IMG/VR virus record: IMGVR_UViG_3300046714_000321
Coordinates: 1 to 52,519 of that record
Length of the DNA stretch: 52,519 bases
Strand: one strand, 5' to 3'
Origin: a virus
Taxonomy: Duplodnaviria; Caudoviricetes
Position numbers and translations under genes: made by a program. Positions 1,080-51,860 of this stretch are shown in pieces. The notes below the pieces were generated by a model. It saw nothing but the letters and a program-made list of their open reading frames with translations, searched no databases and was not told the DNA's origin. Position 1 is the stretch's first letter. Each line of letters opens with the position of its first letter.

Positions 1080-2156
1080 TTACTTACCGCCCTTTTCGAA
1101 GGCCTTTCGATTGGCCTCCATCATCTTTTCGCGCGCGCTCCAAGCTGACGGTTCGTCGCTGGAGTCTTCGCGGGTGATTTCCTCCGTGGTGCCAGTGGCG
1201 GCCCGGCGGACCTCCGAAAGGCTTTCCTCGTTTTCGTCCTTACGCGCGTTCTCGCACGCGATATCGAAACGAACCTGGAGGTACGTATCCGAGAGGCCGT
1301 CCATCTTGAGGGCGGGGCTCTCCTTCTTGATCACGGCCTCAAGGATCTGACGATCCGTCTTACCGGCCAGGTCGGCGTCCGCGCCGAGCACCACGCGAGC
1401 GTCCTCACGGAGCTTCAACGCAGCGACCAGGAGGCCGGGGAGTTTATCCTCCGCGTCCTTGCGAGCCGACTTTGCCTTATCGAGCTCCGCTTGGAGGGAG
1501 TCAGCGCGCGCCGTCTGCTTCTCGGCTTCCGCCTTAGCAGCATCGCGCTCCGCTTCGACCTTGGCCAGTAGGGCCTTCGTTGCTTCGTCCATGCCCAAAG
1601 GTGTAGAAGCGGGCGAAATAACAGCAGAGTCTGTTACCTGATCGCCCTTGCCATCCAACCGGAGGCGCACATCCGACCCCGCGCGGCCACGATCGACCAA
1701 AGCCGTGTGGTTGTATCGGATATGCGTCTGAACGGCATCGTAACGACCCCCTTCATAATCCCCAGGAGTGTCGTTCAGGCTGACGTCATAACCGCAAGAA
1801 AGTTCAACCTTCCCGGATTTCACAACGGAGCATGCCTTAGCGTCTTGCACATAAACGGTCGCCCGGACAAATGCCCCGTCCTGTCTCACATCATCGCCAA
1901 TGTGACCCACTGCGTATTTCTTCCAATTATCTGGCGTAACCAAACCGGGATGATCGACAGTTAAAGGTGCCCCCTTCAAGGAGTCCAAACTGTCCTTCTT
2001 GAAAACTTCTTCCGGAGTGCGGAGCTCGCGTCGCTCCGTTCCGTCCTCGTTGTAATAAACGAAGATACCAGTCCGGGTCAGCGTTGCATCTGCCACCATT
2101 CCACCGGACGGCGATTCGCGAACCGAGTCCAATCGGAATTTATCGAATCGGAGCAT
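1080..2156 (-). CDS. Prohead protease/scaffold (DUF2213 family)
   Basis: TRTGIFVY, LTVDHP, ELSCGY, YNHTALVDRGRAG motifs plus a coiled-coil C-terminal half; ATG at 2156 preferred to TTG at 2162. Confidence 0.9.
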   Translation of the reverse strand: MLRFDKFRLDSVRESPSGGMVADATLTRTGIFVYYNEDGTERRELRTPEEVFKKDSLDSLKGAPLTVDHPGLVTPDNWKKYAVGHIGDDVRQDGAFVRATVYVQDAKACSVVKSGKVELSCGYDVSLNDTPGDYEGGRYDAVQTHIRYNHTALVDRGRAGSDVRLRLDGKGDQVTDSAVISPASTPLGMDEATKALLAKVEAERDAAKAEAEKQTARADSLQAELDKAKSARKDAEDKLPGLLVAALKLREDARVVLGADADLAGKTDRQILEAVIKKESPALKMDGLSDTYLQVRFDIACENARKDENEESLSEVRRAATGTTEEITREDSSDEPSAWSAREKMMEANRKAFEKGGK

Positions 2157-2173
2157 ACCCAAAGGGGTAGCCT

Positions 2174-2743
2174 TTACCGGAGAAGAGCATTCAACCGATG
2201 CCGATTTTCATAGGCCAAGCAGTCTTTTCGCCACGCATAGGACGCATCGGATTTCCGGCGATTGCAACCCCCGCAAAGCCAGGAAACATTGTCCGACACG
2301 TATCCCCGGTCAGGATCCACCCTATCGATGCTGGGTCGATCTTGAACCGATCCTGAAGAAGTCCCCGCCAGCAATTTTTGGCATAGGGGGCACTTGTCCG
2401 GAATGGGGCCAAGTGCAGCCAGCAAAGCCCCAATTTCGTCGAAAGCCCAGCCTGCTTTCTTCGCACGGTGGCGCGCCGCGCAAACTAGATAAGTGGGCGT
2501 GCACGCACGCCGGTACCCCGCCTGCATTTCGGCGTAGTAGCCAGGATGCTCCTGACGCCACTTGCGCTGATCATACCTGTTACGCGCCTTGTAGGCCTCT
2601 CTGAACGCCTCGTTCCCGTTGTGAGCCTGGTAGTGAGGCTCCTTGCCGCGCGATTTGTACGCCGCGTTTTGATTCCTCAAGCAGTCTCTACAAGCGCCGT
2701 CCGGACGGAGGTTTTCAGACCCGCAATGTGTGCATGCAGACAT
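2174..2743 (-). CDS. HNH endonuclease
   Basis: CPLC...SIDRVDPDRGYVSDNVSWLCGGCNRRK HNH core; N-terminal CxxC...CxxC. Confidence 0.85.
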   Translation of the reverse strand: MSACTHCGSENLRPDGACRDCLRNQNAAYKSRGKEPHYQAHNGNEAFREAYKARNRYDQRKWRQEHPGYYAEMQAGYRRACTPTYLVCAARHRAKKAGWAFDEIGALLAALGPIPDKCPLCQKLLAGTSSGSVQDRPSIDRVDPDRGYVSDNVSWLCGGCNRRKSDASYAWRKDCLAYENRHRLNALLR

Positions 2744-2759
2744 CTAGTAACAGTATAGT

Positions 2760-2962
2760 CGGCTACTCAGCTACCCAAGGATCTTACGTTCCATATATAA
2801 TGCCTTTTCCATACCCACCACGCCCGCCCCACCCATTACCCCTCCCCCTCTTATTTCTCTTCTTATACACATAAAGATGGGTAGCTTAGGTAACATGTGG
2901 AGAATCACTCACTTTTTCGATAAGTAGCGGTTAGGTAGCCTACCCATCTGCCTAGGTAGCGA
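2760..2962. other. Candidate replication origin with opposed hexamer repeats
   Basis: GCTAC(T/C) x2 on the left and (G/A)GTA(G/A)C x5 on the right of an AT/pyrimidine-rich core, just downstream of the primase-helicase. Confidence 0.5.
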
Positions 2963-2964
2963 CC

Positions 2965-2998
2965 AAAGAAAAAGCCCCGGTTCTTTGGAAACCGGGGC
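2965..2998 (-). terminator. Rho-independent terminator of the primase-helicase gene
   Basis: Minus strand GCCCCGGTT-7nt-AACCGGGGC followed by TTTTTCTTT. Confidence 0.85.
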
Positions 2999-3027
2999 CG
3001 GCGAGGCCGATTGGCTGGGAAAAAGAT

Positions 3028-5157
3028 TTAATTCGGGGCTGACGGCGTGGGGTCGCGTCCTGGCACCGGCGGGAGCATCTCGGATAGGTGTGAGGGCACT
3101 TCCCAGAATTTCTGGTTATGGCCATCGACCTTTCGCACACGGACCTTGCACCCCAGACGCCGGAGTATTGAGGACACGCGGTTGGTCTCCCTTCGACCCA
3201 CACCCTTCAAGTCCGAAGGCTGGCCGATGCACCCCGTGAATACCTCGCCGGCCGTGCGGAACTCTTTTCGACCCCGGAGCCACGCCTCGATCTTTGGAGA
3301 CCAGGCATCCACCTCCACGAAGGGCGAGCGGACTACCTCCAGAACCCCGTCGTCCTCGTAGTGGTGCTCGAAACGGGGATCTCGGGCCAGCTCGTACGCG
3401 GCGGCCCAGATCCGGTCCCGGTTGGCCTTCACGTATTCGATGTCCACCTTCCCGGGTATGGGAATGGGCCAGTAACGACGGTCCCCGGTGGCGTCTCGTA
3501 GAAAGTCATCGTCATTGGTGGTCCCCACGAAAACCACCTGGCGAGGTACCTCCACCTCCGCGCGTTCGTAGGGCGGTCGGTAGGCGTCCACCGTCCGAGA
3601 CAGGAACTCCTTCGCCGTCTGGTTTTCCTGGCGCAGCATGGCATCCAGCTCGCCTACCTCCACGGCCCAGCACCCCCGGAGCGCGCCGCACGCGTCCTTG
3701 CTTCGCAGGTCGGGCAAGCTCTCGCGGTACCAGGGAAACATGGCCCGGACGAAACGAGACTTACCCACACCCTGGCCACCCTGCAAAACCAGCATGGTGT
3801 CCACCTGGCACCCCGGCTGCAAAACACGGCGCACGGCCGCGACCAGGAACTTACGCAGCATGTCGTCGTAAACCGGATCCGCCGTGCCGAACACACGCGC
3901 CGACAACCCATCCAGGATGGCACCCCGGTTTTCGGCTGGCCCCAAGCTGTCCAGGTACTCGACCACCGTATGGAAGGCGTTCGTGTGCGCGACCTTCAAA
4001 ACAGCCCGTCGGATATCGTCCACCGGCGCCAAAATGCCGTTCACGCTCAACCAGAGCCGGACCCCGGAAATGTCCTCATCGCTCAACCCTCGCCCGTTCT
4101 CCGAATCCCGCATATCGACCGGGGGATCGACGGCGAAAACCTTCCGCTGGAATTCGTCATACTGGAGCACACCCTCCCAGTCGGGGTGGTTTTTTAGACC
4201 CGCAATCAGGTCATCAAAGGCCACCTTTCGCCGTTGACCCTGGGCCGTGTCGCCGTTCTGCACCGAATACTTATGCGCCGGGTTTTTCGTACGACGTTTC
4301 GGCTCCGGCGCCCGCTCCACCTCTGGCCTCGGCCGTTCAATCATCGTCCAGTCAGCGCCCAGGTACCCCCAGTCCATCTCGGTCTCGGTCTGGATGATCT
4401 TCCGCATCAGGTCGGCCTCACCCCACGGCGGCTGGCATGCGGAGTTCCACTCCTCCAGGAGCTCCAGCACGACAGGACGCGGCAAGCCCAGCTCCCGGCG
4501 AAGTTTCCCGGCGAGGATAAACGTGTGCGTTGAGCCACCCTGGCCCTCGATGGCTGGCCCCCACCGGTCGATCAGGGCACGCGCCTCCAGGAGGTTCCGA
4601 CCCATCTGGCTTGCGGTGCACGTGTAAGGCTCCGTCCCCTGGCGCTCTTTGGCCTGGTTTCTCAATAAGGCCGACAAGAGCCACGGCGGCAGTTTCGAGG
4701 GGGCCATGGCCAGCACCACCTCGTAAGTTCCGCCCGCCAAATTAACGCCGGGACCCACAACCTGGCCTCCGTCACCCCGGATATCCACACCGACGCACGG
4801 CCGCCCCTGGGTATTCCTCACGGGAAACCCGGGGTGTGCAAAGTACAGGTGAAAACCGCCCGTCGGCGTCCGGACCGTTAGGGTCGGGGGCACCGTCTGG
4901 CCCTGCTCGGCCACCCACTCGGCCCAGTTGCGTAGGCCGTTTTTCCCGTCTTTTTCATCGATATCGATGACCACGACGCCGGACGGCGCGCCCGTTACCA
5001 CTCCATACGGCTGGCCCTCCGCGACACCCTCCGTCCACTCTTGCCAGTTCGCGACAGTCGGGTGCTTACCCGTCGATTTGCCGCATGATTCGCCCGCGGG
5101 ACACTCGCAAATCCCGTCCGGGCCGACACCCCACAAGGGGATTTTGCGCACGGCCAT
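3028..5157 (-). CDS. Bifunctional primase-polymerase fused to a VapE-like SF3 helicase
   Basis: N-terminal prim-pol motifs (VVIDID, TPTGGFHLYF, DIRGDGG); Walker A QGGQGVGKS, VEVGE, GTTN, GDRRYWP. Confidence 0.9.
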   Translation of the reverse strand: MAVRKIPLWGVGPDGICECPAGESCGKSTGKHPTVANWQEWTEGVAEGQPYGVVTGAPSGVVVIDIDEKDGKNGLRNWAEWVAEQGQTVPPTLTVRTPTGGFHLYFAHPGFPVRNTQGRPCVGVDIRGDGGQVVGPGVNLAGGTYEVVLAMAPSKLPPWLLSALLRNQAKERQGTEPYTCTASQMGRNLLEARALIDRWGPAIEGQGGSTHTFILAGKLRRELGLPRPVVLELLEEWNSACQPPWGEADLMRKIIQTETEMDWGYLGADWTMIERPRPEVERAPEPKRRTKNPAHKYSVQNGDTAQGQRRKVAFDDLIAGLKNHPDWEGVLQYDEFQRKVFAVDPPVDMRDSENGRGLSDEDISGVRLWLSVNGILAPVDDIRRAVLKVAHTNAFHTVVEYLDSLGPAENRGAILDGLSARVFGTADPVYDDMLRKFLVAAVRRVLQPGCQVDTMLVLQGGQGVGKSRFVRAMFPWYRESLPDLRSKDACGALRGCWAVEVGELDAMLRQENQTAKEFLSRTVDAYRPPYERAEVEVPRQVVFVGTTNDDDFLRDATGDRRYWPIPIPGKVDIEYVKANRDRIWAAAYELARDPRFEHHYEDDGVLEVVRSPFVEVDAWSPKIEAWLRGRKEFRTAGEVFTGCIGQPSDLKGVGRRETNRVSSILRRLGCKVRVRKVDGHNQKFWEVPSHLSEMLPPVPGRDPTPSAPN

Positions 5158-5200
5158 GGGCGAACCCTAGCCGAAACTTTTTATACCTACCTGTTATCTC

Positions 5201-7781: not shown

Positions 7782-8074
7782 AGACGGCCGCGAAATTCCG
7801 GGAGGAGTTTTGGAGGATCGCCCGCAACTGGCGACGCCTCCCGATTATCACTAACCCGGGCCCTGGCGATGCAGATCCGGGACCCCATTGCATGACTACG
7901 GCCAAAGCCCACGGCACCGTTTCCGGGCTACTCCAAGAGGCCGTCAAGCGGGGGGACATCCCACAATTTCAGCCGGACTGGGTATCTGTCCATTTCGACG
8001 CTTTTACCAGACACCTAGGCATAATTCCGTCCTCGGCCGCCCCTTCGTGGTTCAGGGAGTGGTGGGGGCTTTGA
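7778..8074 (+). CDS. Hypothetical protein
   Basis: Coupled on both sides by 4-nt overlaps. Confidence 0.55.
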   Translation: MKTAAKFREEFWRIARNWRRLPIITNPGPGDADPGPHCMTTAKAHGTVSGLLQEAVKRGDIPQFQPDWVSVHFDAFTRHLGIIPSSAAPSWFREWWGL

Positions 8075-9882
8075 GTGACTGGCTTACGTCCACGTTCGCG
8101 GCGGACAAGGCCCTGGGCTCCAGCCCGGAGTTTCACCGGATCGACCGCGTCCCGCGCCGCACATGGACGGCCCAGGAGGGCGAGGACCTCCGGGTGCGCA
8201 TGACCTCCGTACTCCGTACGCCCGGGGGGTCCCAGGAGCTCCGTCTGCCCCAGGCCATCGCGCTAGCGGAAATCGGTACCCAGGGGGCGGGTTTCTTCCC
8301 CCTCAAGGTCGGCGCGGGAAAGACCCTGATCTCCCTCCTGGCCGCCTACGTGCTGGGTGCCAAGCGGCCTTTGCTTCTCATGCCGGCCGCTCTCCTGGCC
8401 CGTACCCAGCGGGAGATGGGGCCACTCATGAAGGAGTGGCTGATTCCCCGGTCGATCCGGCCCATGTCGTACCAGTTCCTCTCCCAGGAGGCGAACGCCA
8501 ACGTCCTGGAGTTCTGGCGACCTGACCTGATTATCTGCGATGAGGCCCACAAGCTGAAAAATCGACGGGCCGCGTGCACGCGCCGCGTCAAAAAGTTTCT
8601 CGAGAAATATCCTGAGACCCGGTTCGTTGTCCTATCCGGGACCATGCAGAAGCACGGCGTGAAGGATTATGCCCACCTCCTCCGCTGGTCCATGAAGCAA
8701 AACGCCACCCTTCCCGCGAACGAGGGGGAGCTGGAGCAGTGGGCGGAAATCCTGGATGAGGGTGTGCAGTTCCGGCGGATGCGCCCTGGCGTCCTTCTGA
8801 ATTGGTGCACGGACGAGGACCATGCCAAGGCCAAGGGCGACGAGACGCGGTCCGCGCGCCTGGGTTTCCAGCGCCGGCTCCTGGAGACCCCAGGCGTTTT
8901 CGCGACACCCGGCGAGGAAGTGGCGGCCAGCCTGATAGTCGGCGCCATCCGCTACCAGGCCAACCCGTCCACCGAGGCCAATTTCGGGAAGCTCCGTAAG
9001 GAGTGGACGACACCCGACGGGTGGACCCTGGCCCTGGCCCCTCACGTGTGGGCGAAAGCCCGGGAGCTCGCGCTTGGTTTTCATCATATTTGGGACCCTC
9101 GCCCGCCCGAAAAGTGGCTCAACGCGCGCAAGGCCTGGGCTAAATACGTCCGTTCCATCCTGGCCGACTCCCGTCACCTGGATTCGGAGCTCCAGGTCTG
9201 GAACGCGGTCCGGCGCGGGGAGCTGGGGGACCCGGACGGCGAGGCCCTTCAGGCCGCGTGGGCCGCAATCAAGGACACCTTCACGCCGCACGTGAAAGCG
9301 GTCTGGCACGACGATACCGCCCTCAAGGTGGCCCACCGGTGGATTGAGGACGGACCGGGGATCGTGTGGGTGGAACACGTCCTTTTCGGGGAACGATTGG
9401 CCTCGTTAACTGGATGCGATTACTACGGGAGCCAAGGCGTTAACAGCAAAGGACGTCCAATCGAAGACGAGAGGGGGGACCGTCCCGTGATCGCCTCGAT
9501 TCAGGCCAATGGCACCGGCCGAAACCTACAGCGTTTCGCCCGCAACCTGATCACGTCCCTGCCCCAGGGGGCGGATATCCTGGAGCAACTAATCGGCCGC
9601 ACGCATCGCGATGGCCAGACGGCGGACGAGGTTACCGTCGATTTTCTCGTGGGTTGCGCGGAGCACCTGGAGGGCTTCTGGAAAGCCCGCGCGGACGCGG
9701 AGATGGCCCGCGACACCATGGGCCAGCCCCAGAAACTCCTCCTGGCCGATATCGACGTCCCGTCCGTGGACGAGATGAGGCTCTGGCCTGGCGCCCGTTG
9801 GACGCGCACGGCCCAGGCCGCGGGGGCGGAGGGGATTACTAATATGATGCTGTTAGCAGCTCTGGAAAACATACGAGGATAA
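8071..9882 (+). CDS. SF2 (SNF2-like) DNA helicase
   Basis: VGAGKT, DEAH, LSGT, QLIGRTHR motifs; TTG start at 8071 coupled to the upstream stop. Confidence 0.9.
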   Translation: MSDWLTSTFAADKALGSSPEFHRIDRVPRRTWTAQEGEDLRVRMTSVLRTPGGSQELRLPQAIALAEIGTQGAGFFPLKVGAGKTLISLLAAYVLGAKRPLLLMPAALLARTQREMGPLMKEWLIPRSIRPMSYQFLSQEANANVLEFWRPDLIICDEAHKLKNRRAACTRRVKKFLEKYPETRFVVLSGTMQKHGVKDYAHLLRWSMKQNATLPANEGELEQWAEILDEGVQFRRMRPGVLLNWCTDEDHAKAKGDETRSARLGFQRRLLETPGVFATPGEEVAASLIVGAIRYQANPSTEANFGKLRKEWTTPDGWTLALAPHVWAKARELALGFHHIWDPRPPEKWLNARKAWAKYVRSILADSRHLDSELQVWNAVRRGELGDPDGEALQAAWAAIKDTFTPHVKAVWHDDTALKVAHRWIEDGPGIVWVEHVLFGERLASLTGCDYYGSQGVNSKGRPIEDERGDRPVIASIQANGTGRNLQRFARNLITSLPQGADILEQLIGRTHRDGQTADEVTVDFLVGCAEHLEGFWKARADAEMARDTMGQPQKLLLADIDVPSVDEMRLWPGARWTRTAQAAGAEGITNMMLLAALENIRG

Positions 9883-9885
9883 AAC

Positions 9886-10368
9886 ATGCAGGCAGATAAT
9901 TTTTTCGGCGGAATGAAGGATACGGAGCTCTCCAAAAAGGGGACCTACCTCACGGACGGCATTTTTCGCCTTCGTGTGAAGTCTACCGAGCGGGTGGATT
10001 TCCGTGACGGTGTGAAAAAGGGTTACGCGGTCACCGTGGAGGTCATCGAGACCCCGGATCCCGTCAAGCACCCGGTGGGTTCCGAGCGCTCCTACTTCGT
10101 GACACTTCGGCCCGGCGACGACGGCCGCAAGATGTTTATGCAGAGCGTCAAATCCTTTATCGTCGCGGCCCTCGGTTATGACGCGAAGGTAGACGAGGAA
10201 AAGATCAAGTCGGAACTCGATCCGAAAATCGAGCAACTGGCTCTCGCCTCCACGCAAAACAAGGCACTTCTCGCGGGTCGCGAAGTGATCTGCGAAGTGA
10301 AATCCGTCCCCAAGAAATCGAAGCCGACGGAGATGTTTTCCCGGCACACATTCTCCCCCGCAAAATAA
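9886..10368 (+). CDS. Putative single-stranded DNA-binding protein
   Basis: 160 aa beta-rich protein between helicase and polymerase, GAGG RBS; function inferred from position and composition. Confidence 0.5.
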   Translation: MQADNFFGGMKDTELSKKGTYLTDGIFRLRVKSTERVDFRDGVKKGYAVTVEVIETPDPVKHPVGSERSYFVTLRPGDDGRKMFMQSVKSFIVAALGYDAKVDEEKIKSELDPKIEQLALASTQNKALLAGREVICEVKSVPKKSKPTEMFSRHTFSPAK

Positions 10369-10390
10369 TCGACGGCTGGGCTGAAAAAGG

Positions 10391-10419
10391 TTGCCCGTAA
10401 TCTAGCGTCGCGCTAGATA
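10391..10419 (+). promoter_or_regulatory. Sigma-70-like promoter overlapped by palindromic operator A
   Basis: TTGCCC-17nt-TAGATA; ATCTAGCG-TCG-CGCTAGAT perfect inverted repeat; near-identical arrangement at 36387-36415. Confidence 0.6.
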
Positions 10420-10440
10420 CACCTTGTCCCCTTGCAGCTC

Positions 10441-10502
10441 ATGCGGGGGTTGACGCCGGTCAAGGAAACCGGCCGCCATGGTTGGCAAGTCGACCCCCGT
10501 AT
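10441..10502 (+). ncRNA. Structured RNA element 1 (three-way junction)
   Basis: 14-bp closing stem with two G-U pairs enclosing hairpins GCCGGT/ACCGGC and GCCA/TGGC. Confidence 0.6.
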
Positions 10503-10524
10503 TTCACTGTATCTGTAATCACTA

Positions 10525-10663
10525 CCGGGGATAAGCCTCGGTTTCTGGGTATGGTGCGCCCTGGCGTAAGCCTTGCCGCATCGGCCATGTAGGCCCACAA
10601 GCGCCCTCCGTTCTCCGGGGCGTTCGGGCCCCAGTGCACCCAGAAGCCGAGGCTTATCCCTGG
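10525..10663 (+). ncRNA. Structured RNA element 2 (26-bp closing stem, multibranched interior)
   Basis: 10525-10550 pairs with 10638-10663 with only two G-U wobbles; internal hairpins GGC-GTAA-GCC, GGCC-ATGTA-GGCC, GGGGC-GTTCGG-GCCCC. Confidence 0.65.
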
Positions 10664-10677
10664 AAGGGAAATAGTCC

Positions 10678-11082
10678 ATGGTCACTGAGATTACCGAGAA
10701 GAAAAAGCAAATCCCGGGTGCAGAGGATATCCCCGGCTGGATGCGCACGGCGGCCAAGCTAGTGGCCGATGGCCTCGATCCCATTCACGACCTGGCGATC
10801 AGCATCTCCGAGAAGGGCGCCACCCTCGTGGGCCGCATGGTCCTGGGCCGCACCATGCGGGCCATGGCCGAAGAGACGAAGGACCCCGAGTACAAGGTCG
10901 GCCTCCTGACGATGGCCGCCACGGTCGAGAAGTTCCCGGAGCCGCACCCCGAGGGCCACCCGGCGATCTGTTTCGTCCTTTTTGAGTGGTCGACCGGGAC
11001 CCTTCTCTGCCGCTTTTTTGACAAGCAGGCGACGCCCGAGGTGGTCGAGTTCAAGCCGAACGCGGTCGGGGGCCAGGCCTGA
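10678..11082 (+). CDS. Hypothetical protein
   Basis: AAGGGA RBS; 134 aa directly upstream of the polymerase. Confidence 0.7.
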   Translation: MVTEITEKKKQIPGAEDIPGWMRTAAKLVADGLDPIHDLAISISEKGATLVGRMVLGRTMRAMAEETKDPEYKVGLLTMAATVEKFPEPHPEGHPAICFVLFEWSTGTLLCRFFDKQATPEVVEFKPNAVGGQA

Positions 11083-11084
11083 TC

Positions 11085-13034
11085 GTGCGCTTCACGTTCG
11101 ATACGGAAACCGCCCGGTTTCGCCCCGGGGTCATGGCCCCGGAGCTGGCGTGCGTTTCCTACGTGGTGGCCGGCCAATACCCCCAGCTGGTACACGTGAA
11201 CAACTCCCGGGACGTTATCTGTACCTGGCTGAGAGACGCCGATCTGATCGTCGCCCACCACGCCCCTTACGACCTGGCCGTAATCTGCGCCCACTGGCCC
11301 GACCTTATCCCGGCCGTTTTCGCGGCCCTTTCAGCCGACCGGATTACGGACACGAAAATCCGGGAGCAACTGATCATGCTCGGATTCGGCCGGTTCAAGG
11401 GCCACCGGGACAAGTCGGGCAAGTGGACGAAAACCCAGTACTCGCTGGACATGCTGGCCCGGCGGTACCTGGGGCACCAGATCGACAAGAAGGACCCTGA
11501 GATCGAGGCCATCCGCCTGGGTTTCGGCCCCCTCCGACACCTCCCGCTGGACCAGTGGCCGCCCAAGGCCGTGGCCTATGCGAAAGAGGACGCCGATCTT
11601 ACGGACCGGATTTTCCAGCTCCAAGAGAAGGCGCCCCCGGAATTCCTGGTCAACCAGTACGCCCAGACCCGTTACGCGTTTTGGCTCCACCTGGCGAAAA
11701 CCTGGGGCCTCCGGACGCGCACGGAAGGCGTTACCGCCCTGACCCAGGAGGTCGAACGGCGGAAAGAGGACGTCAAGAAGGAGCTCATGGGCCACGGCCT
11801 CGTGCGCGACGACGGGAGCCGGGACACGAAGGAGGCCGCCGCGTTGATGATCAAGGTCTGCACGGAGGCCCAGAAGGAGGTCCGCCGGAACGACCCCACC
11901 GAGAAGATGCTGCGGGACGGCCAGACCCAGGGATCCGTCCAGCTGGACGAGGACGCGTGCCGTTACTCCGAGGACGACACCATGCTCCTTTATGCGGAGT
12001 ACACGGTCCTGGGGTCGATTCTGTCCAAGGACGTGCCGGCCCTGGCCGCGGGGGTGGAGTTTCCGATCCACACCGATTTCGGCCTGGCCGAGTCAGGTCG
12101 GACGACGTCCGCCAGCCCCAACGTCCAGAACTTCCGTCGATCGTCGGACGAGGAAGGGAGCCTAACGGCCGGCCTCCAGGGGATTCGGGAGTGTTTCGTG
12201 CCGCGCGCCGGCCACGTCTATTTCCAGGCCGATTACCCGTCCCTGGAGCTCCGGACCCTGGCCCAGGCCTGCATGAGCCTGGTTGGGCACTCGGAACTGG
12301 CCAAGGTCCTCAACGCGGACGTGGACCCGCACACTTCCCTGGCCGCGGAGATCCTCGGGATCCCCTACGACGAATGCAAGGCGCGCCTCAAGGCGGAAAA
12401 GGACCTACCGAAAGGCTCGCAAAAGCCGTGTGATAACGCCCGTCAGACGGCCAAGGTCGCGAACTTTGGGTTTCCCGGAGGCCTCGGTTACAAGTCCCTG
12501 ATTTCTTTCGCCCGTAAGTCCTACAAGGTAATTCTGTCGGAGGACCAGGCACGGGATCTGAAACGCAGGTGGCTCGCCCGATGGCCGGAAATGCGGGAGT
12601 ACTTCGATTTCGTCGCCCGCCTGACGGACGAGGACCGGCCCGTGGTCCAGCTGTTTTCCAACCGGATCCGGCGCGGCTGCACGTACACGAGCGCCTGCAA
12701 CACCTACTTTCAGGGCCTGGGCGCCGACTGCTCCAAGCTCGCGGGCTGGGAAGTTTCGAAGCGCTGTTACCTGGAGCACTTGAAATCCCCGCTTTTTGGC
12801 TCTCGGATCGTGAACTTCGTGCACGACGAAATTATTGGGGAGTGCCTGGATAACGATCAGGCCCACGACGTGGCCACGGAGCTGGCCAAGGTCATGAAAG
12901 ATGCGGCGAATCGGCTCCTTCCGGACGTGCCGTTTATCGACGTGGAGCCGGCCCTCATGGCCTACTGGAGCAAAAACGCGAAGACGATCCGGGACGAAAA
13001 CGGCCGCCTCAAGGTCTGGGGGCGCGACAAATGA
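11085..13034 (+). CDS. polA: Family A DNA polymerase with 3'-5' exonuclease
   Basis: Exo motifs DTET, HHAPYD, YAKED; motif A ADYPSLE, motif B RQTAKVANFG, motif C VHDEI. Confidence 0.95.
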   Translation: MRFTFDTETARFRPGVMAPELACVSYVVAGQYPQLVHVNNSRDVICTWLRDADLIVAHHAPYDLAVICAHWPDLIPAVFAALSADRITDTKIREQLIMLGFGRFKGHRDKSGKWTKTQYSLDMLARRYLGHQIDKKDPEIEAIRLGFGPLRHLPLDQWPPKAVAYAKEDADLTDRIFQLQEKAPPEFLVNQYAQTRYAFWLHLAKTWGLRTRTEGVTALTQEVERRKEDVKKELMGHGLVRDDGSRDTKEAAALMIKVCTEAQKEVRRNDPTEKMLRDGQTQGSVQLDEDACRYSEDDTMLLYAEYTVLGSILSKDVPALAAGVEFPIHTDFGLAESGRTTSASPNVQNFRRSSDEEGSLTAGLQGIRECFVPRAGHVYFQADYPSLELRTLAQACMSLVGHSELAKVLNADVDPHTSLAAEILGIPYDECKARLKAEKDLPKGSQKPCDNARQTAKVANFGFPGGLGYKSLISFARKSYKVILSEDQARDLKRRWLARWPEMREYFDFVARLTDEDRPVVQLFSNRIRRGCTYTSACNTYFQGLGADCSKLAGWEVSKRCYLEHLKSPLFGSRIVNFVHDEIIGECLDNDQAHDVATELAKVMKDAANRLLPDVPFIDVEPALMAYWSKNAKTIRDENGRLKVWGRDK

Positions 13035-13297
13035 CTACCGCGGAGATGGCCCGGGCCCTCCGGATCACGGAAGCGGCCGCCTACTGGCGACGCAAGCACT
13101 GGCCCCCGGAGCGCTGGTTTGAACCCCCTCGGGAGTACGGGCGCGAGAAGCCCCCGGCACCCAAGGTGGCGCGGCCCCGGGCCCAAAGTCTGGTTTCTCA
13201 GCTGGCCCAAAAGGCCGGGATTACGCGACGAGCGATGGCCTACCGCATGAAGCGATGGCCCATGGACCTCTGGCTGAAAGGTGCGGAATCATCATGA
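13031..13297 (+). CDS. Small protein with two tandem HTH-like repeats
   Basis: AEMARALRITEAAAYWRRKHWP and SQLAQKAGITRRAMAYRMKRWP. Confidence 0.6.
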   Translation: MTTAEMARALRITEAAAYWRRKHWPPERWFEPPREYGREKPPAPKVARPRAQSLVSQLAQKAGITRRAMAYRMKRWPMDLWLKGAESS

Positions 13298-13998
13298 GTT
13301 TTCGAGCGGGTGACCGGGTCCTGATCAACGCGAACGCCTATGGCCAAAACGGCAAATTCGGCGTGATTTCCCACGAACACGCTCCCCAGATGTGGGTGGT
13401 AAAGCACGAGGAAGCGCGCCTATTTCCTGAGTATCCCGAGGGGTACTATTTCGAAGGGGAGCTATCCCGGGTCACGGAAATCGAGGCCAAAACCCTCCCC
13501 AGTGGCCAGCTCCCCCAGCCCCCGCCGCTCCCCCGCGAGGTCCGGCCCACGGCCCCGAGCGCGAAGGATTTCAAGGCGACCAACCCCAAGGACGGCGCGG
13601 CCACGGCACGCCTGGCCCTCTCCCTCTTTCCCCAGACCGCTATCGCGTACGGGGCGCTGGCCATGACGGAGGGCCACCAAAAGTACGGTGGTTATAACTA
13701 TCGGGAGGCCGGCGTTAATGCATCGGTTTACGTGGACGCCTGCATGCGCCACCTTTTCAAGTGGTACAACGGCCAGGAGGCGGACGGGGCCACGGGAGTT
13801 CCAGAACTTGCCTCCGCCCTGGCCTGTCTGGCCGTCCTGATCGACGCCGTCGAGTGCCAGAAACTGAAGGACGACCGGCCGCCCGTCGGACCTATGGCTG
13901 GTCTATTGGCCCGCATGGAGCAGAGCACGAAAGCCCTCCAGGAGAGGTTCCCGGGAAGCCCCGGACGCTGCGTCGCGAAGAAACCCGAGGCCGCGTGA
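13294..13998 (+). CDS. dATP/dGTP diphosphohydrolase domain protein (DUF5664)
   Basis: TNPKD...GHQKYGGYNYRE...YVDACMRHLFKWYNGQEAD..TGVPELASA...DDRP signature; N-terminal SH3-like FRAGDRV segment. Confidence 0.85.
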   Translation: MSFRAGDRVLINANAYGQNGKFGVISHEHAPQMWVVKHEEARLFPEYPEGYYFEGELSRVTEIEAKTLPSGQLPQPPPLPREVRPTAPSAKDFKATNPKDGAATARLALSLFPQTAIAYGALAMTEGHQKYGGYNYREAGVNASVYVDACMRHLFKWYNGQEADGATGVPELASALACLAVLIDAVECQKLKDDRPPVGPMAGLLARMEQSTKALQERFPGSPGRCVAKKPEAA

Positions 13999-16342: not shown

Positions 16343-17723
16343 CTTTCACGAATTCGTCAAGCGCGCGTGGCATATCATCGAGCCGGGCGTCCCATTCTCC
16401 GATAACTGGCACATTGAGCTGGTCTGTCGGAAACTTGAGGCGGTTTTCCGGGGCGAGATAAAAAAGCTGGTCATAAACCAGCCCCCGGGCACGTCGAAAT
16501 CCACCGTGGTTTCCGTGCTTTTCAAGGTTTGGACCTGGATCAACCAGCCGGGCCACAAGTTTCTGGCGGCCAGTTTCGATGGGTCCCTAACTCTCCGAGA
16601 CGCCCGTAAGTGCCTGACTTTGCTCCAGTCTGATTGGTTCAAAGCAAGGTGGGGCGACACGGTGGCGGCCGTGGAGAAAAACCTGGCCGTCTCGGATTTC
16701 GCGACCACGGCCGGGGGCCAGCTGTTTTCCACGTCGGTGGGTGGCAAGGTCACGGGTCGCCACTTCGACACCCACATTATCGACGATCCGACCAAACCCC
16801 TGGCCGTGTCCCCCGTGACCCTGGAGCAGGCCCAGAAGTGGTTCCAAGGCACGTTGGCCTCCCGTTTCCGGGACCCGAAAAACGGCCGGACGGTCCTGAT
16901 CATGCAGCGTCTGCATGAGAACGACCTGGCCGGCTTCCTCGAGAGGGAGCACGGGTATTACGTCGTCAGGCTCCCCATGGAGTACGAGCCGGCGGAGGCT
17001 CACCCCGAGGACCCGCGCACGGAAGAGGGTGAGCTCCTCTGGCCGGACCGGATCCCGCTGCACGTGGTCCTGGAGCTCAAAAAAACGATGGGGTCGATCG
17101 TGTACGCGGCCCAGGAACAGCAGAGGCCGGTCCCCGAGGGAGGCGCCGTTTTCCGCCGGGAATGGTTCCAGTACTACAAGGGCGTCCCGGCCAAGTTCGA
17201 CCAGCTCCTTATGTCGGTGGACTGCTCTTTCAAGGACCTCGAAACCTCGGACTGGGTCGTTATCCAGGTCTGGGGCCGGAGGGGCGGGGAGTTCTGGCTA
17301 CTGGACCAGACGCGGGAGCGCATGGGTTTCTCGGCTACGTGCGTCGCGATCCGGGCCATGGCGAAAAAATGGCCTCGGGCCGTGAAAAAAATCGTGGAGG
17401 ATAAAGCCAACGGATCCGCGGTGGTCGAGACCCTGAATAAAAAAATCAGCGGTATGAGGCCAGTTAACCCCGAGGGTGGCAAGCTCGCGCGCGCTAATGC
17501 CGTGAGCCCTCTTTTCGAGGCGAAAAACGTCTGGCTACCGGACCCCGAGCTGGCCCCCTGGATCGGCGACTACACCAAGGAACTCCAGTCGTTCCCGATG
17601 GGGACGAACGACGACCAGGTGGACGCGACCACCCAGGCTTTGAACCACATGTATATGGGCAAAAGTCGGGTGAAAGAGGCGATGGCGGCCATGGCTCGCG
17701 GGTATATGCCTGGCATCCGATAA
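16278..17723 (+). CDS. terL: Terminase large subunit
   Basis: INQPPGTSKS Walker A, IIDDP, IMQRLHENDL, QQRP, nuclease SVD...EDKANG...DDQVDA. Confidence 0.95.
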   Translation: MASKLTADIVSVAVDRELCRRSFHEFVKRAWHIIEPGVPFSDNWHIELVCRKLEAVFRGEIKKLVINQPPGTSKSTVVSVLFKVWTWINQPGHKFLAASFDGSLTLRDARKCLTLLQSDWFKARWGDTVAAVEKNLAVSDFATTAGGQLFSTSVGGKVTGRHFDTHIIDDPTKPLAVSPVTLEQAQKWFQGTLASRFRDPKNGRTVLIMQRLHENDLAGFLEREHGYYVVRLPMEYEPAEAHPEDPRTEEGELLWPDRIPLHVVLELKKTMGSIVYAAQEQQRPVPEGGAVFRREWFQYYKGVPAKFDQLLMSVDCSFKDLETSDWVVIQVWGRRGGEFWLLDQTRERMGFSATCVAIRAMAKKWPRAVKKIVEDKANGSAVVETLNKKISGMRPVNPEGGKLARANAVSPLFEAKNVWLPDPELAPWIGDYTKELQSFPMGTNDDQVDATTQALNHMYMGKSRVKEAMAAMARGYMPGIR

Positions 17724-17743
17724 CAGGTACCTAGTATCTGATT
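17719..17743 (+). promoter_or_regulatory. Pseudo-palindromic site B with -10 box TAGTAT (leaderless promoter)
   Basis: GATAACAG-GTAC-CTAGTATC; near-identical copy at 22975, both 25 nt before an ATG. Confidence 0.65.
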
Positions 17744-18354
<611 letters not shown>

Positions 18355-22380: not shown

Positions 22381-22976
22381 GCCTGGTCCCGGTGGCCCCG
22401 GCCCCCGTACGCATCTGGGAGCGCCAAGATCAGGAGAGCGAGGCCTCCTGGGCCGGCTTTCAGGCGTACCGCGATGGCCAGCGCCCGCGCCAGCTAGAGG
22501 ACGTGGCCCGCAAGTTCCGGGTCCCCCTCCACAAGATAATCGACCTCTGCAATGATAATTCCTGGCGCCAGAGGGTCCTGGAATTCGACCGGTGGGAGGA
22601 CGCCAACCTCCTGGAGGACCGCCTGGCCGTGCTCCAGGAGACTCAGAGGGACGTCACGATCCGACACCTCCGCTTGATTCGCATGGCCTCCGAGGTGGCG
22701 GCCGAGGATATGTCGAAGCTCCTGGCCACCGCGAAAGAGTCCGAGCAACCAGTGGTTAACCGTGTCGCGGACCTGATCAAACTCATGGACGCGGCCGTGA
22801 AACTGGACCGACTCGAACGGGGCCAGGCCACGGAAATACTTCAGGCTGGCGCCCCCGTGCTGGATCTGTCTCAGTTTACGCCCGAGGAGCTCCTGGTTTT
22901 CGAAAAGCTGGCCACGAAGGCCGGTATCCCCCTGGGCGCCGAAACGACCCAGGTCCCTGCCCTCCCGGCGAAGTGA
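22377..22976 (+). CDS. terS: Putative terminase small subunit
   Basis: WERQDQES..SWAGFQAYRD N-terminus, HTH, WRQRV..FD, helical oligomerisation region. Confidence 0.6.
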   Translation: MSLVPVAPAPVRIWERQDQESEASWAGFQAYRDGQRPRQLEDVARKFRVPLHKIIDLCNDNSWRQRVLEFDRWEDANLLEDRLAVLQETQRDVTIRHLRLIRMASEVAAEDMSKLLATAKESEQPVVNRVADLIKLMDAAVKLDRLERGQATEILQAGAPVLDLSQFTPEELLVFEKLATKAGIPLGAETTQVPALPAK

Positions 22977-22999
22977 TAACAGGTTTCTAGTATCTGGTT
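22975..22999 (+). promoter_or_regulatory. Pseudo-palindromic site B with -10 box TAGTAT
   Basis: GATAACAG-GTTT-CTAGTATC-TGGTT-ATG. Confidence 0.65.
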
Positions 23000-23356
23000 A
23001 TGGGGCTCGGCGGAGGTAATCGCTGGATTTGTGAAAAGCCTGGTCGCCGTTCGACCTCCCAGAACGCGCTGGATCTGGCTCTAGCCCAGGCCACTTTCGC
23101 CAAATACCGGAAAAGTGTCCGAGCGGTACACATAAATAAAGACCCCTATAAGGGCGTAACTACTTACATTTATCTGGCCGCCAAGGACCTCTGTCGAAAG
23201 CTTGCCCAAAACCCGTTTTTGCAGCTCACCCAAAAGCAACGGGCCATGTTCGAGCGGGCCCTAGGGCCGGAGGTCGTGGCCCAAATAAAGGCCCAATTGG
23301 GGCCCCCGGAGATACCGGCCCAGGCCCTCCCCCTAAAACCCCCGGGTCGCGAATGA
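23000..23356 (+). CDS. Hypothetical protein
   Basis: Leaderless-type start; coupled to the next ORF. Confidence 0.6.
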   Translation: MGLGGGNRWICEKPGRRSTSQNALDLALAQATFAKYRKSVRAVHINKDPYKGVTTYIYLAAKDLCRKLAQNPFLQLTQKQRAMFERALGPEVVAQIKAQLGPPEIPAQALPLKPPGRE

Positions 23357-37636: not shown

Positions 37637-37908
37637 TGGCCCGGATTACGGCGCGACAGAGCCGCACCCTGACACACGGCTGGCACGAAAAGGGTGGCCT
37701 GGAAATCTCCGTGAATGGGGAGTGGGTTGCAGTCGTATATCCGAGCAAGGCCCGAATCGGCCAGTGGCGCTGGGCCATCCAAATGGGCCTATCGATTCCG
37801 ACCCCTCCGCCAACGGAGCGAGATAACTTTTACGAGACCCGGGACGAAGCAAAAGCCGCGTGCGTCGAATACATCCGCGCCCAGCTGGCCAAGGTCGAGG
37901 GCCTATGA
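37636..37908 (+). CDS. Hypothetical protein
   Basis: GGAG RBS; coupled on both sides. Confidence 0.65.
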   Translation: MARITARQSRTLTHGWHEKGGLEISVNGEWVAVVYPSKARIGQWRWAIQMGLSIPTPPPTERDNFYETRDEAKAACVEYIRAQLAKVEGL

Positions 37909-38087
37909 AACCGGGCGATACCGTGCGCGTAAGCGAGACTGCCAATATCAAACTCCTCCAGCCGGGCGAACTGGGCCAGGTCGTGGAGGTCTCCCCGGTC
38001 GTGGACTCCAAGCCGGCCGTGCGCGTCGCGTTCGCCACCGGGTGGATCGTCTGGCTTTTCCCCTCCGAATACGAGGCCGTCCCGTGA
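37905..38087 (+). CDS. Small SH3/KOW-like protein
   Basis: MKPGDTVRV...GELGQVVEV. Confidence 0.55.
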   Translation: MKPGDTVRVSETANIKLLQPGELGQVVEVSPVVDSKPAVRVAFATGWIVWLFPSEYEAVP

Positions 38088-50880: not shown

Positions 50881-51102
50881 TCAGGCCCTCAGCTCGAACG
50901 GTACAGCCCTCATAAAGATGACGTCGATCCCGTCCCGCTGGCACGTGAGGATCTGCTCCGTCTCCCGGCCGGTGCTGGAGTACCCAAAGCCAAGGGCCTT
51001 GACCTTTTCGCGCATGATGACCTTTGCGCCAGCCAGGCTAAGGGCGACGCCCTCTGGGTAGTCGTTACACATGACCACGTACACCGTCACGGGGTTGGGC
51101 AT
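50881..51102 (-). CDS. Hypothetical protein
   Basis: TATTAT 6 nt upstream of ATG; 73 aa. Confidence 0.6.
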   Translation of the reverse strand: MPNPVTVYVVMCNDYPEGVALSLAGAKVIMREKVKALGFGYSSTGRETEQILTCQRDGIDVIFMRAVPFELRA

Positions 51103-51732: not shown

Positions 51733-51769
51733 AAACCCCTAAGCGCAAGCTTGGGGGTTTTTCTTTTTC
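51733..51769 (+). terminator. Rho-independent terminator, plus strand
   Basis: AAACCCCTAAGC-GCAA-GCTTGGGGGTTT then TTCTTTTT. Confidence 0.75.
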
Positions 51770-51832
51770 AGTAGTTCAGGGATTGGACGTATGTGTCCAA
51801 ATTCATCCTTTCAAGGGTAACCCCTGCAAAGC

Positions 51833-51860
51833 AAAAAGCCCCGACCTTGTGGGCCGAGGC
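51833..51860 (-). terminator. Rho-independent terminator of the capsid gene
   Basis: Minus strand GCCTCGGCC-CACAA-GGTCGGGGC-TTTTT, 25 nt after the stop. Confidence 0.8.

What the first reader, a model, noticed from the sequence alone, without database searches (positions are those of the whole stretch)
10525..10663. Unrecognised structured RNA with a 26-bp closing stem and a tRNA-like interior, upstream of the polymerase operon
Seen: 10525-10550 pairs with 10638-10663 over 26 bp, and both deviations from perfect complementarity are G-U pairs on the plus strand (they would be A-C mismatches on the minus strand), which favours a plus-strand RNA over a DNA cruciform. An alternative register gives 23 bp, a 5-nt bulge, then a 7-bp helix GGTGCGC/GTGCACC. 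Just inside that helix is GGGGC-GTTCGG-GCCCC, resembling a T-arm, plus two more hairpins (GGC-GTAA-GCC and GGCC-ATGTA-GGCC). It is not a canonical tRNA: no D-loop GG, no proper anticodon arm, no CCA. Inference: a phage small RNA such as a tRNA/Y-RNA-like mimic or defence decoy released by RNase III, or a cis-acting leader, since the stem ends immediately before the RBS of ORF 10678. I match it to no family I know; this is the best candidate for an undescribed system here.
Basis: partly seen in the sequence, partly recalled or inferred. Interest (0 to 1): 0.78.

Follow-up and report, generated by a model that had tools for sequence, protein, structure and literature searches.

The report
Lone long hairpin before phage polymerase operon
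A soil phage carries one exceptionally long inverted repeat just before the genes for its DNA polymerase; it most likely folds in the messenger RNA as a processing or translation-control hairpin, and its supposed tRNA-like core is no better than chance.

Summary
The 26-bp helix (10525-10550 / 10638-10663, two G-U pairs on the + strand) is real. It is the longest helix in the 52.5-kb phage genome (next best 15 bp; 0 of 200 simulated genomes reach 26). Independent metagenome contigs carry it unchanged.

The "tRNA-like interior" does not hold up:
- The 87-nt interior folds no better than shuffles (z = -1.0).
- ARAGORN, Rfam and a model built from relatives' tRNA-like elements all miss it.

The element is single-copy. 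I found no sequence relative, no target duplication and no variants, so covariation cannot be tested, and no RNA runs were listed.

It lies in a non-coding 309-nt gap inside a same-strand gene block, and its base covers 6 of 8 bases of the ribosome-binding site of ORF 10678.

Best reading (about 0.4): a cis-acting mRNA hairpin, a substrate for double-strand-specific RNase III, that separates the upstream message from the polymerase operon and gates its translation. Rivals are a DNA-level site, a solo MITE-like insertion, and a released small RNA.

Three distant relatives do carry tRNA-like elements in the matching interval.

Moderate-to-low interest: a new instance of a known kind, unproven.

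The parts
10525..10550 (+). 5' arm of the 26-bp helix
   Evidence: Mean pair probability of the helix is 0.994.
10638..10663 (+). 3' arm of the 26-bp helix
   Evidence: The two wobble pairs are G10527-U10661 and U10542-G10646.
10519..10524 (+). Imperfect outward extension of the 5' arm (4 of 6 bases paired)
   Evidence: (32-nt arms, 88%) and the dot-bracket.
10664..10669 (+). Imperfect outward extension of the 3' arm. With 10662-10663 it forms the purine-rich ribosome-binding-site-like stretch GGAAGGGA, of which 6 of 8 bases are paired in the best fold.
   Evidence: dot-bracket. One search gives a duplex energy of -6.0 kcal/mol with a recalled anti-Shine-Dalgarno motif; 16 of 50 predicted genes score as well or better.
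10551..10637 (+). 87-nt G+C-rich interior. Only the GGC-GUAA-GCC hairpin (10563-10572) is robust. Overall it is not structured beyond chance.
10503..10518 (+). A+T-rich linker between structure B and the long stem. It shares the 7-mer GTATCTG with a motif that abuts two other start codons. A promoter here is possible but not shown.
   Evidence: The sigma-70 scan finds none.
10441..10502 (+). Structure B: a 14-bp closing stem around two small hairpins, in the same gap
   Evidence: There is a weak, non-significant C4 antisense RNA match on the - strand (18.4 bits against a gathering score of 45).
10400..10418 (.). 8-bp palindromic hairpin with a 3-nt loop, 32 nt after the stop of ORF160
9886..10368 (+). 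Upstream gene ORF160. No Pfam or PHROG family; DUF669-like by Atlas features and structure.
   Evidence: GC3 is 0.72.
10678..11082 (+). Downstream gene ORF134, an orphan. Its start lies 8 nt after the ribosome-binding-site-like stretch.
   Evidence: GC3 is 0.87.
11085..13034 (+). Family A DNA polymerase with a 3'-5' exonuclease domain. It starts 2 nt after ORF134.

Best explanation
The element is a cis-acting RNA hairpin in the + strand messenger that runs from ORF160 into the ORF134-polymerase operon.

When transcribed, the two arms form a 26-bp near-perfect duplex, extending imperfectly to 32 bp. The foot of that duplex covers most of the ribosome-binding site of ORF134. A duplex this long exceeds the minimum substrate of the host's double-strand-specific RNase III.

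The expected outcome is cleavage within the stem. This would (a) separate the upstream message from the polymerase message, (b) leave stem remnants at the new ends, and (c) free the ribosome-binding site. Without cleavage, the hairpin would hold translation of ORF134 down.

A variant of the same idea: a promoter in the A+T-rich linker (10503-10518) starts the transcript at the foot of the stem, so the hairpin becomes a protective 5' cap of the polymerase mRNA.

Shown: the stem, its uniqueness, its non-coding intergenic position on the coding strand, and its overlap with the ribosome-binding site. Inferred: transcription through it, cleavage, and the effect on translation.

On this reading the 87-nt interior has no specific role.
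For: - The 26-bp helix is unique in the genome and beyond chance.
- The + strand RNA fold is -93.6 kcal/mol, z = -7.5. The - strand fold is -85.9, z = -5.8. Both imperfections are G-U on the + strand.
- The gap 10369-10677 has no coding signal: GC by codon position is flat at 0.58/0.60/0.64, against GC3 of 0.72-0.87 in the neighbouring genes.
- The gap lies inside a block of + strand genes from 5201 to 25849. ORF134 and polA are 2 nt apart.
- In the best fold, 6 of 8 bases of GGAAGGGA (10662-10669) are paired, and the ATG follows 8 nt later.
- In the closest relative, L016 (polA 49% identical, syntenic), the same position holds a + strand RNA signal. It is a 13-14-bp hairpin followed by five T, lying immediately 5' of the ribosome-binding site of the gene before polA, and its only imperfection is also a G-U on the + strand.
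- Another lineage, L012 (41%), has 27-nt arms around 43 nt, between the helicase gene and the next gene. The second arm ends 27 nt before that gene's ATG.
- Passages read in PMC5371410 state three things. The minimum RNase III target is 22 nt of duplex. The enzyme cuts sites in lambda, T7 and T3 messages. Cleavage can expose an occluded ribosome-binding site (adhE, lambda cIII).
Against: - There are no transcript data.
- There are no sequence variants. Contigs from four laid runs show 0 differences, and no homologous element was found. So there is no covariation or conservation test of any kind.
- The strand argument rests on two sites.
- As single-stranded DNA both strands fold almost equally well: -48.1, z = -6.75, against -45.8, z = -5.99. 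The structure itself therefore does not say RNA.
- 5 of 15 relatives examined have no gap of 60 nt or more anywhere between helicase and polA. A hairpin here is not a requirement of the gene module.
- Most genes of this phage have weak ribosome-binding sites; 34 of 50 score weaker than -6.0 kcal/mol. That makes the sequestration argument less secure.
- The host and its RNase III are unknown. The phage encodes no RNase III of its own.
Confidence: 0.4

Rival explanations
1. A DNA-level site. The inverted repeat would act in DNA, for example as a hairpin in single-stranded DNA that starts lagging-strand or origin priming, or as a two-arm binding or recombination site in the replication module.
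For: - It lies among the replication genes: helicase 7888-9882 and polA 11085-13034, with a primase-helicase at 3028-5157.
- DNA-parameter folds are strongly non-random on both strands, z = -6.75 and -5.99.
- An A+T-rich linker adjoins it.
- The interior is unstructured. That fits a function residing only in the two arms.
Against: - No iterons or repeated motifs link this gap to others.
- The lowest-GC, most origin-like gaps are elsewhere: 2001-3000 at GC 0.548 and 51001-52000 at GC 0.532.
- 5 of 15 relatives have no gap at all between helicase and polA, so no conserved origin sits here.
- An 87-bp spacer disfavours cruciform extrusion in duplex DNA (established knowledge).
- Both imperfections are the kind tolerated in RNA on the coding strand.
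Confidence: 0.2
2. A solo miniature inverted-repeat insertion of the MITE, Correia-element or REPIN kind, or an inverted duplication made by template switching. It would have no dedicated function, although it would still be cut by RNase III if transcribed.
For: - The geometry fits. Arms of 26-32 nt enclose an element of 139-151 bp, and the arm start-to-start spacing is 113 bp.
- Passages read in PMC2649163 give Correia elements as mostly 153-157 or 104-108 bp. They have inverted-repeat ends, often lie 5' of genes, occur in a prophage, and are bound or cleaved by RNase III in mRNA.
- Passages read in PMC3116915 give REPINs as two inverted REPs 71 or 110 bp apart that form hairpins in ssDNA or mRNA.
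- The interior is no more structured than chance.
- The relatives lack the element.
Against: - It is single-copy in the phage.
- The two 12-nt arm cores at 90-120 nt spacing occur 0 times in 185,579 species genomes and 0 times in 2.9 million viral contigs.
- There is no blastn match in 72,556 plasmids or 50,697 phage records.
- There is no target-site duplication. The flanks read CACTA and AAGGG at the core, and CTGTAA and AATAGT at the extended repeat.
- These searches need exact or fairly close matches, so a diverged family in an unsampled host is not excluded.
Confidence: 0.2
3. A stand-alone small RNA: a tRNA-like or Y-RNA-like mimic, or a defence decoy. RNase III would cut it out of the stem and the roughly 100-nt interior would act in trans.
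For: - Cutting the 26-bp stem on both strands would release the interior (inference from RNase III chemistry; PMC5371410).
- Three distant relatives carry tRNA-like elements on the + strand in the helicase-polA interval. L016 3501-3572 scores 41.1 bits on the Rfam tRNA model and has a 6-nt anticodon loop. L018 537-593 scores 25.0 bits and has no D arm. L040 2449-2514 is an ARAGORN 'tRNA-???'.
- The loop of the window's GGCC hairpin (ATGTA) resembles the L016 anticodon-like loop (ATTGTA).
Against: - The interior has z = -1.0.
- The cloverleaf helices have at most 0.7% ensemble probability and cost 12.3 kcal/mol.
- Default ARAGORN finds nothing. The relaxed call is 1 of 89 in the window.
- No Rfam family, tRNA included, reaches E <= 10.
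- Model R1, built from L016 and L018, gives at most 6.8 bits in the gap with filters off. R1 also failed to recover L040, so it is a narrow test.
- A T-arm plus acceptor descriptor finds nothing in the window.
- The phage has no TROVE/Ro gene.
Confidence: 0.08
4. An invertible DNA switch (inverton). The two arms would be recombination sites and the 87-bp segment would flip to turn the polymerase operon on or off.
For: Inverted arms flank a short segment directly upstream of an operon. The phage has a tyrosine recombinase at 37715-39247.
Against: - Only the reference orientation appears in the contigs of X1, X4 and X5. Contigs drop rare variants, so this is weak.
- No serine invertase is encoded.
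- The one tyrosine recombinase is an ordinary integrase candidate far from the site.
- No promoter-like site lies in the segment.
- 87 bp is shorter than the invertible segments I recall for known switches (recalled, not checked).
Confidence: 0.03

Closest known systems
RNase III processing hairpins in phage polycistronic messages (T7 and T3 early mRNAs; lambda N leader, cIII and sib)
   Same: An intercistronic or leader position on the coding strand. A duplex longer than the 22-nt minimum. Overlap with a ribosome-binding site, as in the occlusion-and-release cases named in PMC5371410 (passages).
   Different: No sequence relation. The T7-type sites I recall are about 60-nt hairpins with an internal bubble, not a 26-bp perfect stem around an 87-nt branched interior (recalled). 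This is the only such site in the genome, whereas T7 has several. Cleavage is untested.
Correia repeat-enclosed elements and other bacterial MITEs
   Same: About 150 bp bounded by inverted repeats, lying 5' of a gene, and forming an mRNA hairpin that RNase III binds or cuts. One such element occurs in a prophage (PMC2649163 passages).
   Different: Those are multi-copy families with a TA target duplication and a conserved core. This element is single-copy, has no duplication and has no relative in any collection searched.
REPINs (REP doublets forming hairpins)
   Same: Two inverted arms about 110 bp apart start to start (113 here). The spacer matters mainly for its length, and the hairpin is predicted in ssDNA or mRNA (PMC3116915 passages).
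   Different: REPINs are chromosomal populations of tens to hundreds of copies tied to a RAYT transposase. No second copy was seen here, and I did not search for a RAYT gene.
tRNA and tRNA-like elements (Rfam tRNA RF00005, mascRNA-type, bacterial Y-RNA-like RNAs)
   Same: A 7-bp acceptor-like helix can be drawn next to a 5-bp hairpin with a GTTCGG loop. Relatives have real tRNA-like elements in the matching interval.
   Different: The T-like loop has 6 nt rather than 7. No D arm or anticodon arm is present. No model or program detects it, and the fold is thermodynamically disfavoured.
Intrinsic terminator, as in relative L016 at the same position
   Same: A strong + strand hairpin ends just 5' of the ribosome-binding site of the gene before polA.
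   Different: No T/U tract follows the window's stem; the sequence after it is AAGGGAAATAGTCC. The stem-loop is 139 nt and branched.

Membership tests
tRNA (Rfam RF00005 / ARAGORN) | Cloverleaf scored above threshold by a tRNA model or finder | tested here: not met
   ARAGORN finds 0 genes in the window. No Rfam tRNA match at E <= 10 in 10000-11200. The relaxed ARAGORN call at 10554-10641 appears only at the -ps80 setting, which gives 89 calls in 52.5 kb.
tRNA-like element as in relatives L016 and L018 | 7-bp acceptor helix directly followed by a 5-bp T stem with a 7-nt T-loop | tested here: not met
   The descriptor scan finds L016 and L018 (plus one likely chance site in L015) but nothing in the window. 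Model R1 scores at most 6.8 bits in the gap. The window's loop is 6 nt and a spare A separates it from the acceptor strand. R1 is narrow because it was built from 2 sequences, and it missed L040.
Bacterial Y-RNA-like RNA (Ro-associated) | Curated family match and a Ro/TROVE protein gene in the genome | tested here: not met
   No Rfam family at E <= 10 lies over the element. PF05731 TROVE gives 0 matches in the phage, while the controls ring in Deinococcus and Bacteroides. A host-encoded Ro cannot be excluded.
RNase III processing site | Duplex RNA of at least about 22 bp on a transcribed strand | tested here: met
   The helix has 26 uninterrupted pairs with pair probability 0.994. It lies on the strand of all neighbouring genes. 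The 22-nt minimum comes from passages of PMC5371410. Transcription itself is inferred.
RNase III processing site | RNase III-dependent cleavage with a 2-nt 3' overhang | not testable with these tools
   No RNA holder is listed among the sequencing runs. The host is unknown.
MITE / Correia-type element | Multiple copies sharing the terminal inverted repeats | tested here: not met
   One copy in the phage. 0 matches to the paired arm cores in genome contigs and viral contigs. No blastn match in plasmids or phages. These were exact or near matches only.
MITE / Correia-type element | Target-site duplication flanking the repeats | tested here: not met
   The flanks read CACTA / AAGGG at the core, and CTGTAA / AATAGT at the extended repeat. 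There is no direct repeat.
Intrinsic terminator | Compact G+C-rich hairpin followed by a T/U tract | tested here: not met
   The terminator scan of 9800-11200 lists nothing at the element. The 3' flank has no T run.
Retron msr-msd RNA | Flanking inverted repeats next to a reverse transcriptase gene | tested here: not met
   PF00078 gives 0 matches in the phage. ORF134 has no family.
Invertible promoter (inverton) | Both orientations present in a population, with a dedicated invertase | tested here: inconclusive
   Only the reference orientation appears in the contigs, but contigs hide minor forms. There is no resolvase or invertase. There is one tyrosine recombinase, at 37715-39247.
C4 antisense RNA (RF01695), for neighbouring structure B | Score at or above the gathering threshold | tested here: not met
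   18.4 bits against 45, E = 1.6, on the - strand at 10439-10504.

The most novel reading that the evidence does not exclude
The long stem is a processing cassette. RNase III would excise a stable RNA of about 100 nt that replaces, or descends from, the odd tRNA-like elements that relatives keep in the same helicase-polymerase interval. Those elements have 6-nt or 8-nt anticodon loops, or lack a D arm. The released RNA would act in trans, for instance as a decoy for a host tRNA-directed or RNA-directed defence. That would make this gap a clade-wide hot spot for phage-encoded tRNA mimics.
Probability: 0.07. Interest if true: 0.7.

Novelty: new member of a known kind. Interest (0 to 1): 0.3.

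Why it matters
If the hairpin is an RNase III-gated leader, it gives a simple, testable example of post-transcriptional control of replication genes in an uncultured, G+C-rich temperate soil phage clade about which nothing is known. It would also show that such control evolves lineage by lineage. Relatives have a terminator, a different long hairpin, tRNA-like elements or no gap at all at this spot. For the scan, the useful result is a caution: in DNA of 60-70% G+C, small hairpins that look like tRNA arms arise by chance, and only the closing stem is significant here. The tRNA-like elements in the relatives may be the more interesting lead.

Tried and rejected
**Sequence relatives of the element**
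- blastn of the gap against 50,697 phage records: none.
- blastn and nhmmer against 29 related loci: none.
- blastn against 72,556 plasmids: none.
- A 15-mer of the arm in viral contigs gave 8 loci. All were chance matches of 15-20 nt.
- The paired arm cores gave 0 hits in genome contigs and viral contigs.

**Closer phage relatives**
- ORF134 and ORF160 as queries found no locus in viral contigs.
- polA found only loci at 32-49% identity: 5 viral and 24 metagenomic, several of them duplicates. It found none in species genomes.
- The best GenBank phage hit is 28% identical.

**Expression and natural variation**
- No RNA holder is listed among the 5 runs.
- Laying contigs of X1, X3, X4 and X5 gave no variants.
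- X3 contigs stop at 10539 and resume at 10600. I draw nothing from that.

**Promoters, terminators and repeats**
- Promoter and terminator scans were at or below shuffle expectation.
- The gap-against-gap repeat search showed no motif shared with this gap beyond 10-11-mers.

**Family and gene searches**
- Rfam in gathering mode found nothing in the whole window or in 10 relatives. That mode also missed the 41-bit tRNA hit in L016, so only the E-value mode counts as a sensitive negative.
- Retron, Ro, phage RNase III, resolvase and PurZ: absent.
- The - strand ORFs over the gap (123 and 59 aa) were rejected as genes on flat codon-position GC and no Pfam hit for the 123-aa ORF.

- No complex or structure prediction was run.

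Full report
**What the window is.** The window is a complete 52,519-bp virus record with direct terminal repeats. A GC3-based gene map puts genes on the + strand from 5201 to about 25849 and mostly on the - strand after that.

The finding sits in the replication part of the genome:
- a primase-helicase at 3028-5157 on the - strand;
- an SNF2/ResIII-type helicase at 7888-9882;
- ORF160 at 9886-10368;
- a 309-nt gap at 10369-10677;
- ORF134 at 10678-11082;
- a family A DNA polymerase at 11085-13034.

ORF160 has no Pfam or PHROG hit. ORF134 is an orphan. The phage has a tyrosine integrase at 37715-39247, so it is probably temperate.

**The observation.**
- 10525-10550 pairs with 10638-10663 over 26 uninterrupted pairs.
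- The only two departures from Watson-Crick pairing are G10527-T10661 and T10542-G10646. These are G-U on the + strand.
- The repeat continues imperfectly to 10519-10669 (32 nt, 88%).

The stem is far beyond chance.
- It is the top inverted repeat in the genome.
- The next longest uninterrupted helix within 300 nt is 15 bp.
- 0 of 200 first-order Markov simulations of a genome of this size and composition reach 26 bp; the maximum was 24.
- RNA folding of 10515-10675 gives -93.6 kcal/mol, z = -7.5, with 0 of 200 shuffles as good.

It is real DNA, not an assembly artefact. Contigs from other soil and rhizosphere runs carry it unchanged. An X4 contig covers 10097-10800, and two X5 contigs cover 10362-10649, all with 0 differences. 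X1 may be the source sample.

**The interior.**
- The 87-nt interior alone folds at -38.8 kcal/mol, z = -1.02. 29 of 200 shuffles do as well on the + strand and 33 of 200 on the - strand.
- The cloverleaf-like register (23 bp, bulge, 7-bp helix, three hairpins) scores -78.2 kcal/mol against -90.5 for the best fold.
- In the ensemble, its acceptor-like, GGCC and T-like helices have probabilities of at most 0.007. The 26-bp stem has 0.994 and the GGC-GUAA-GCC hairpin has 0.997.
- ARAGORN finds no tRNA in the window. At 80% stringency it calls 10554-10641, but that setting gives 89 calls across the window, so the call is noise.
- Rfam 15 searched in E-value mode over 10000-11200 returns 8 matches at E <= 10, none overlapping 10519-10669.

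**Is it coding, repeated or mobile?**
- The gap has flat GC by codon position (0.58/0.60/0.64 for the - strand ORF over it), against GC3 of 0.72-0.87 in its neighbours. It is non-coding.
- The element is single-copy in the phage.
- Its arms do not recur elsewhere. The paired 12-nt arm cores at 90-120 nt spacing are absent from 185,579 species genomes and from 2.9 million viral contigs. blastn finds nothing in plasmids or phages.
- There is no target-site duplication.

The geometry is that of Correia elements and REPINs. Correia elements are 104-157 bp, have inverted ends and are RNase III substrates in mRNA (PMC2649163 passages). REPINs are inverted arms 71 or 110 bp apart (PMC3116915 passages). 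The defining multi-copy feature was tested and not met, within the limits of near-exact matching and an unknown host.

**Relatives.** No close relative exists in the collections.
- polA finds 5 viral and 24 metagenomic loci at 32-49% identity and none in species genomes.
- The gap has no detectable sequence similarity to any of them.
- ORF160 has a homologue only in L016 (32% identity). ORF134 has none.
- Covariation therefore cannot be tested. The four laid runs show no variants either.

I compared architecture in 15 non-duplicate relatives that had upstream sequence. Left out as duplicates or as lacking upstream DNA were L013, L017, L019, L021, L023, L025, L026, L029, L032, L034, L035, L036, L038 and L039.
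- 5 of the 15 have no gap of 60 nt or more between helicase and polA.
- L016, the closest relative and syntenic, has in the matching gap a tRNA-family hit followed by a 13-14-bp hairpin, five T, then the ribosome-binding site.
- L012 has 27-nt arms around 43 nt between the helicase gene and the next gene.
- L024 has a hairpin with a 17-bp uninterrupted run and no T tract.
- L020 and L022 have ordinary terminator hairpins.

So strong + strand hairpins recur in this module, but they are lineage-specific and dispensable.

**tRNA-like elements in relatives.**
- L016 3501-3572 scores 41.1 bits on the Rfam tRNA model (gathering score 29) and has a 6-nt anticodon loop.
- L018 537-593 scores 25.0 bits on tRNA and 20.4 bits on mascRNA. 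It has a canonical T arm and no D arm.
- L040 2449-2514 is an ARAGORN 'tRNA-???' with a canonical T-loop, but it has no Rfam hit.

All three lie on the + strand in the helicase-polA interval. A covariance model built from L016 and L018 (R1) does not find the window's element. The best score in the gap is 6.8 bits with filters off. The model also missed L040, so it is narrow. A simple acceptor-plus-T-arm descriptor finds nothing in the window either. The window therefore fails every membership test for a tRNA-like element. Descent from one cannot be excluded, but it is not supported.

**Mechanism.** What remains is one very long, nearly perfect stem with these properties:
- It is on the coding strand of a co-directional gene block.
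- It lies in a non-coding gap.
- Its foot pairs 6 of 8 bases of the purine-rich stretch GGAAGGGA (10662-10669), 8 nt before the ATG of ORF134.
- That stretch is among the stronger ribosome-binding sites of this phage. 16 of 50 genes score as well or better against a recalled anti-Shine-Dalgarno motif.

A 26-bp duplex exceeds the 22-nt minimum for RNase III. RNase III sites in lambda, T7 and T3 messages, and release of occluded ribosome-binding sites by cleavage, are established (PMC5371410 passages).

I therefore favour, at about 0.4, a cis-acting mRNA hairpin that is cut by host RNase III. Cutting would separate the ORF160 message from the ORF134-polA message and unmask the ribosome-binding site. 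A variant is a 5'-terminal protective hairpin, if a promoter sits in the A+T-rich linker. The linker shares only a 7-mer with a motif that abuts two other start codons. No sigma-70-like site is found.

**Evidence against this reading.**
- There are no RNA data and no covariation.
- The strand bias rests on two sites.
- DNA-parameter folds are almost as good on both strands.
- The feature is absent from many relatives.

**Rivals.**
- A DNA-level site such as an origin or a single-strand initiation hairpin: 0.2.
- A solo MITE-like insertion or template-switch product without dedicated function: 0.2.
- A released small RNA or tRNA mimic: 0.08.
- An inverton: 0.03.

The rest is unassigned.

**Verdict.** The stem is real and striking. 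The tRNA-like interior is not supported. Nothing places the element outside known kinds of intercistronic RNA hairpins or inverted-repeat insertions. Interest is 0.3.

Tools that were closed or gave nothing are listed under Tried and rejected. No supplementary files were consulted.

Noticed in passing
L016:3501-3572; L018:537-593; L040:2449-2514: Three distant relatives carry tRNA-like elements on the + strand between helicase and polA. L016 scores 41.1 bits on Rfam tRNA and has a 6-nt anticodon loop, and is followed by a terminator. L018 has no D arm (25.0 bits tRNA, 20.4 bits mascRNA). L040 is an ARAGORN 'tRNA-???' with a canonical T-loop. They could be unusual phage tRNAs, processing signals or mimics.
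   Followed up: partly
window 10441-10502: A second structured element lies in the same gap: a 14-bp closing stem around two small hairpins, followed by an A+T-rich stretch. On the - strand it gives a weak, non-significant match to C4 antisense RNA (18.4 bits against a gathering score of 45, E = 1.6).
   Followed up: partly
window 17719-17746 and 22975-23002; also 5191-5198, 39761, 42259, 51664: A repeated motif, GATAACAGGT..CTAGTATCTG.TT, runs directly into the ATG of two genes (17744 and 23000). Its GATAACAG core recurs at four other sites. It is probably a phage promoter or operator with leaderless or very short-leader starts. Most genes have weak ribosome-binding sites.
   Followed up: partly
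window 13255-13998: This ORF carries the N-terminal domain of dATP/dGTP diphosphohydrolase (PF18909, 1.5e-19). No PurZ-like adenylosuccinate synthetase is present in the genome, so a 2-aminoadenine genome is not indicated.
   Followed up: partly
window 2875-2949 and 324-341: There are two other palindromic features in low-GC non-coding regions. One is a 20-nt inverted repeat (80%) with a 35-nt spacer next to the primase-helicase gene. The other is an 18-bp perfect palindrome near the left end. Both are candidates for origin or operator sites.
   Followed up: no
L012:2270-2366 (same in L013, L017, L032): In a lineage with polA 41% identical, 27-nt inverted arms (89%) around a 43-nt interior lie between the helicase gene and the next gene. 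The architecture resembles the window's element but the sequence is unrelated.
   Followed up: partly
window 10551-10592: A 13-codon ORF (ATG at 10551, TAG at 10590) starts at the first base inside the long stem. No ribosome-binding site precedes it, so it is probably chance.
   Followed up: no
window 10539-10600: Contigs of run X3 stop at 10539 and resume at 10600, inside the element. X4 and X5 contigs cross it. This is most likely a low-depth assembly break.
   Followed up: no
L016 and Rfam search modes: Rfam 'gathering' mode over whole loci missed the 41.1-bit tRNA hit in L016 that 'evalue' mode found on a 301-nt slice. Gathering-mode blanks on G+C-rich loci are therefore not sensitive negatives.
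   Followed up: yes
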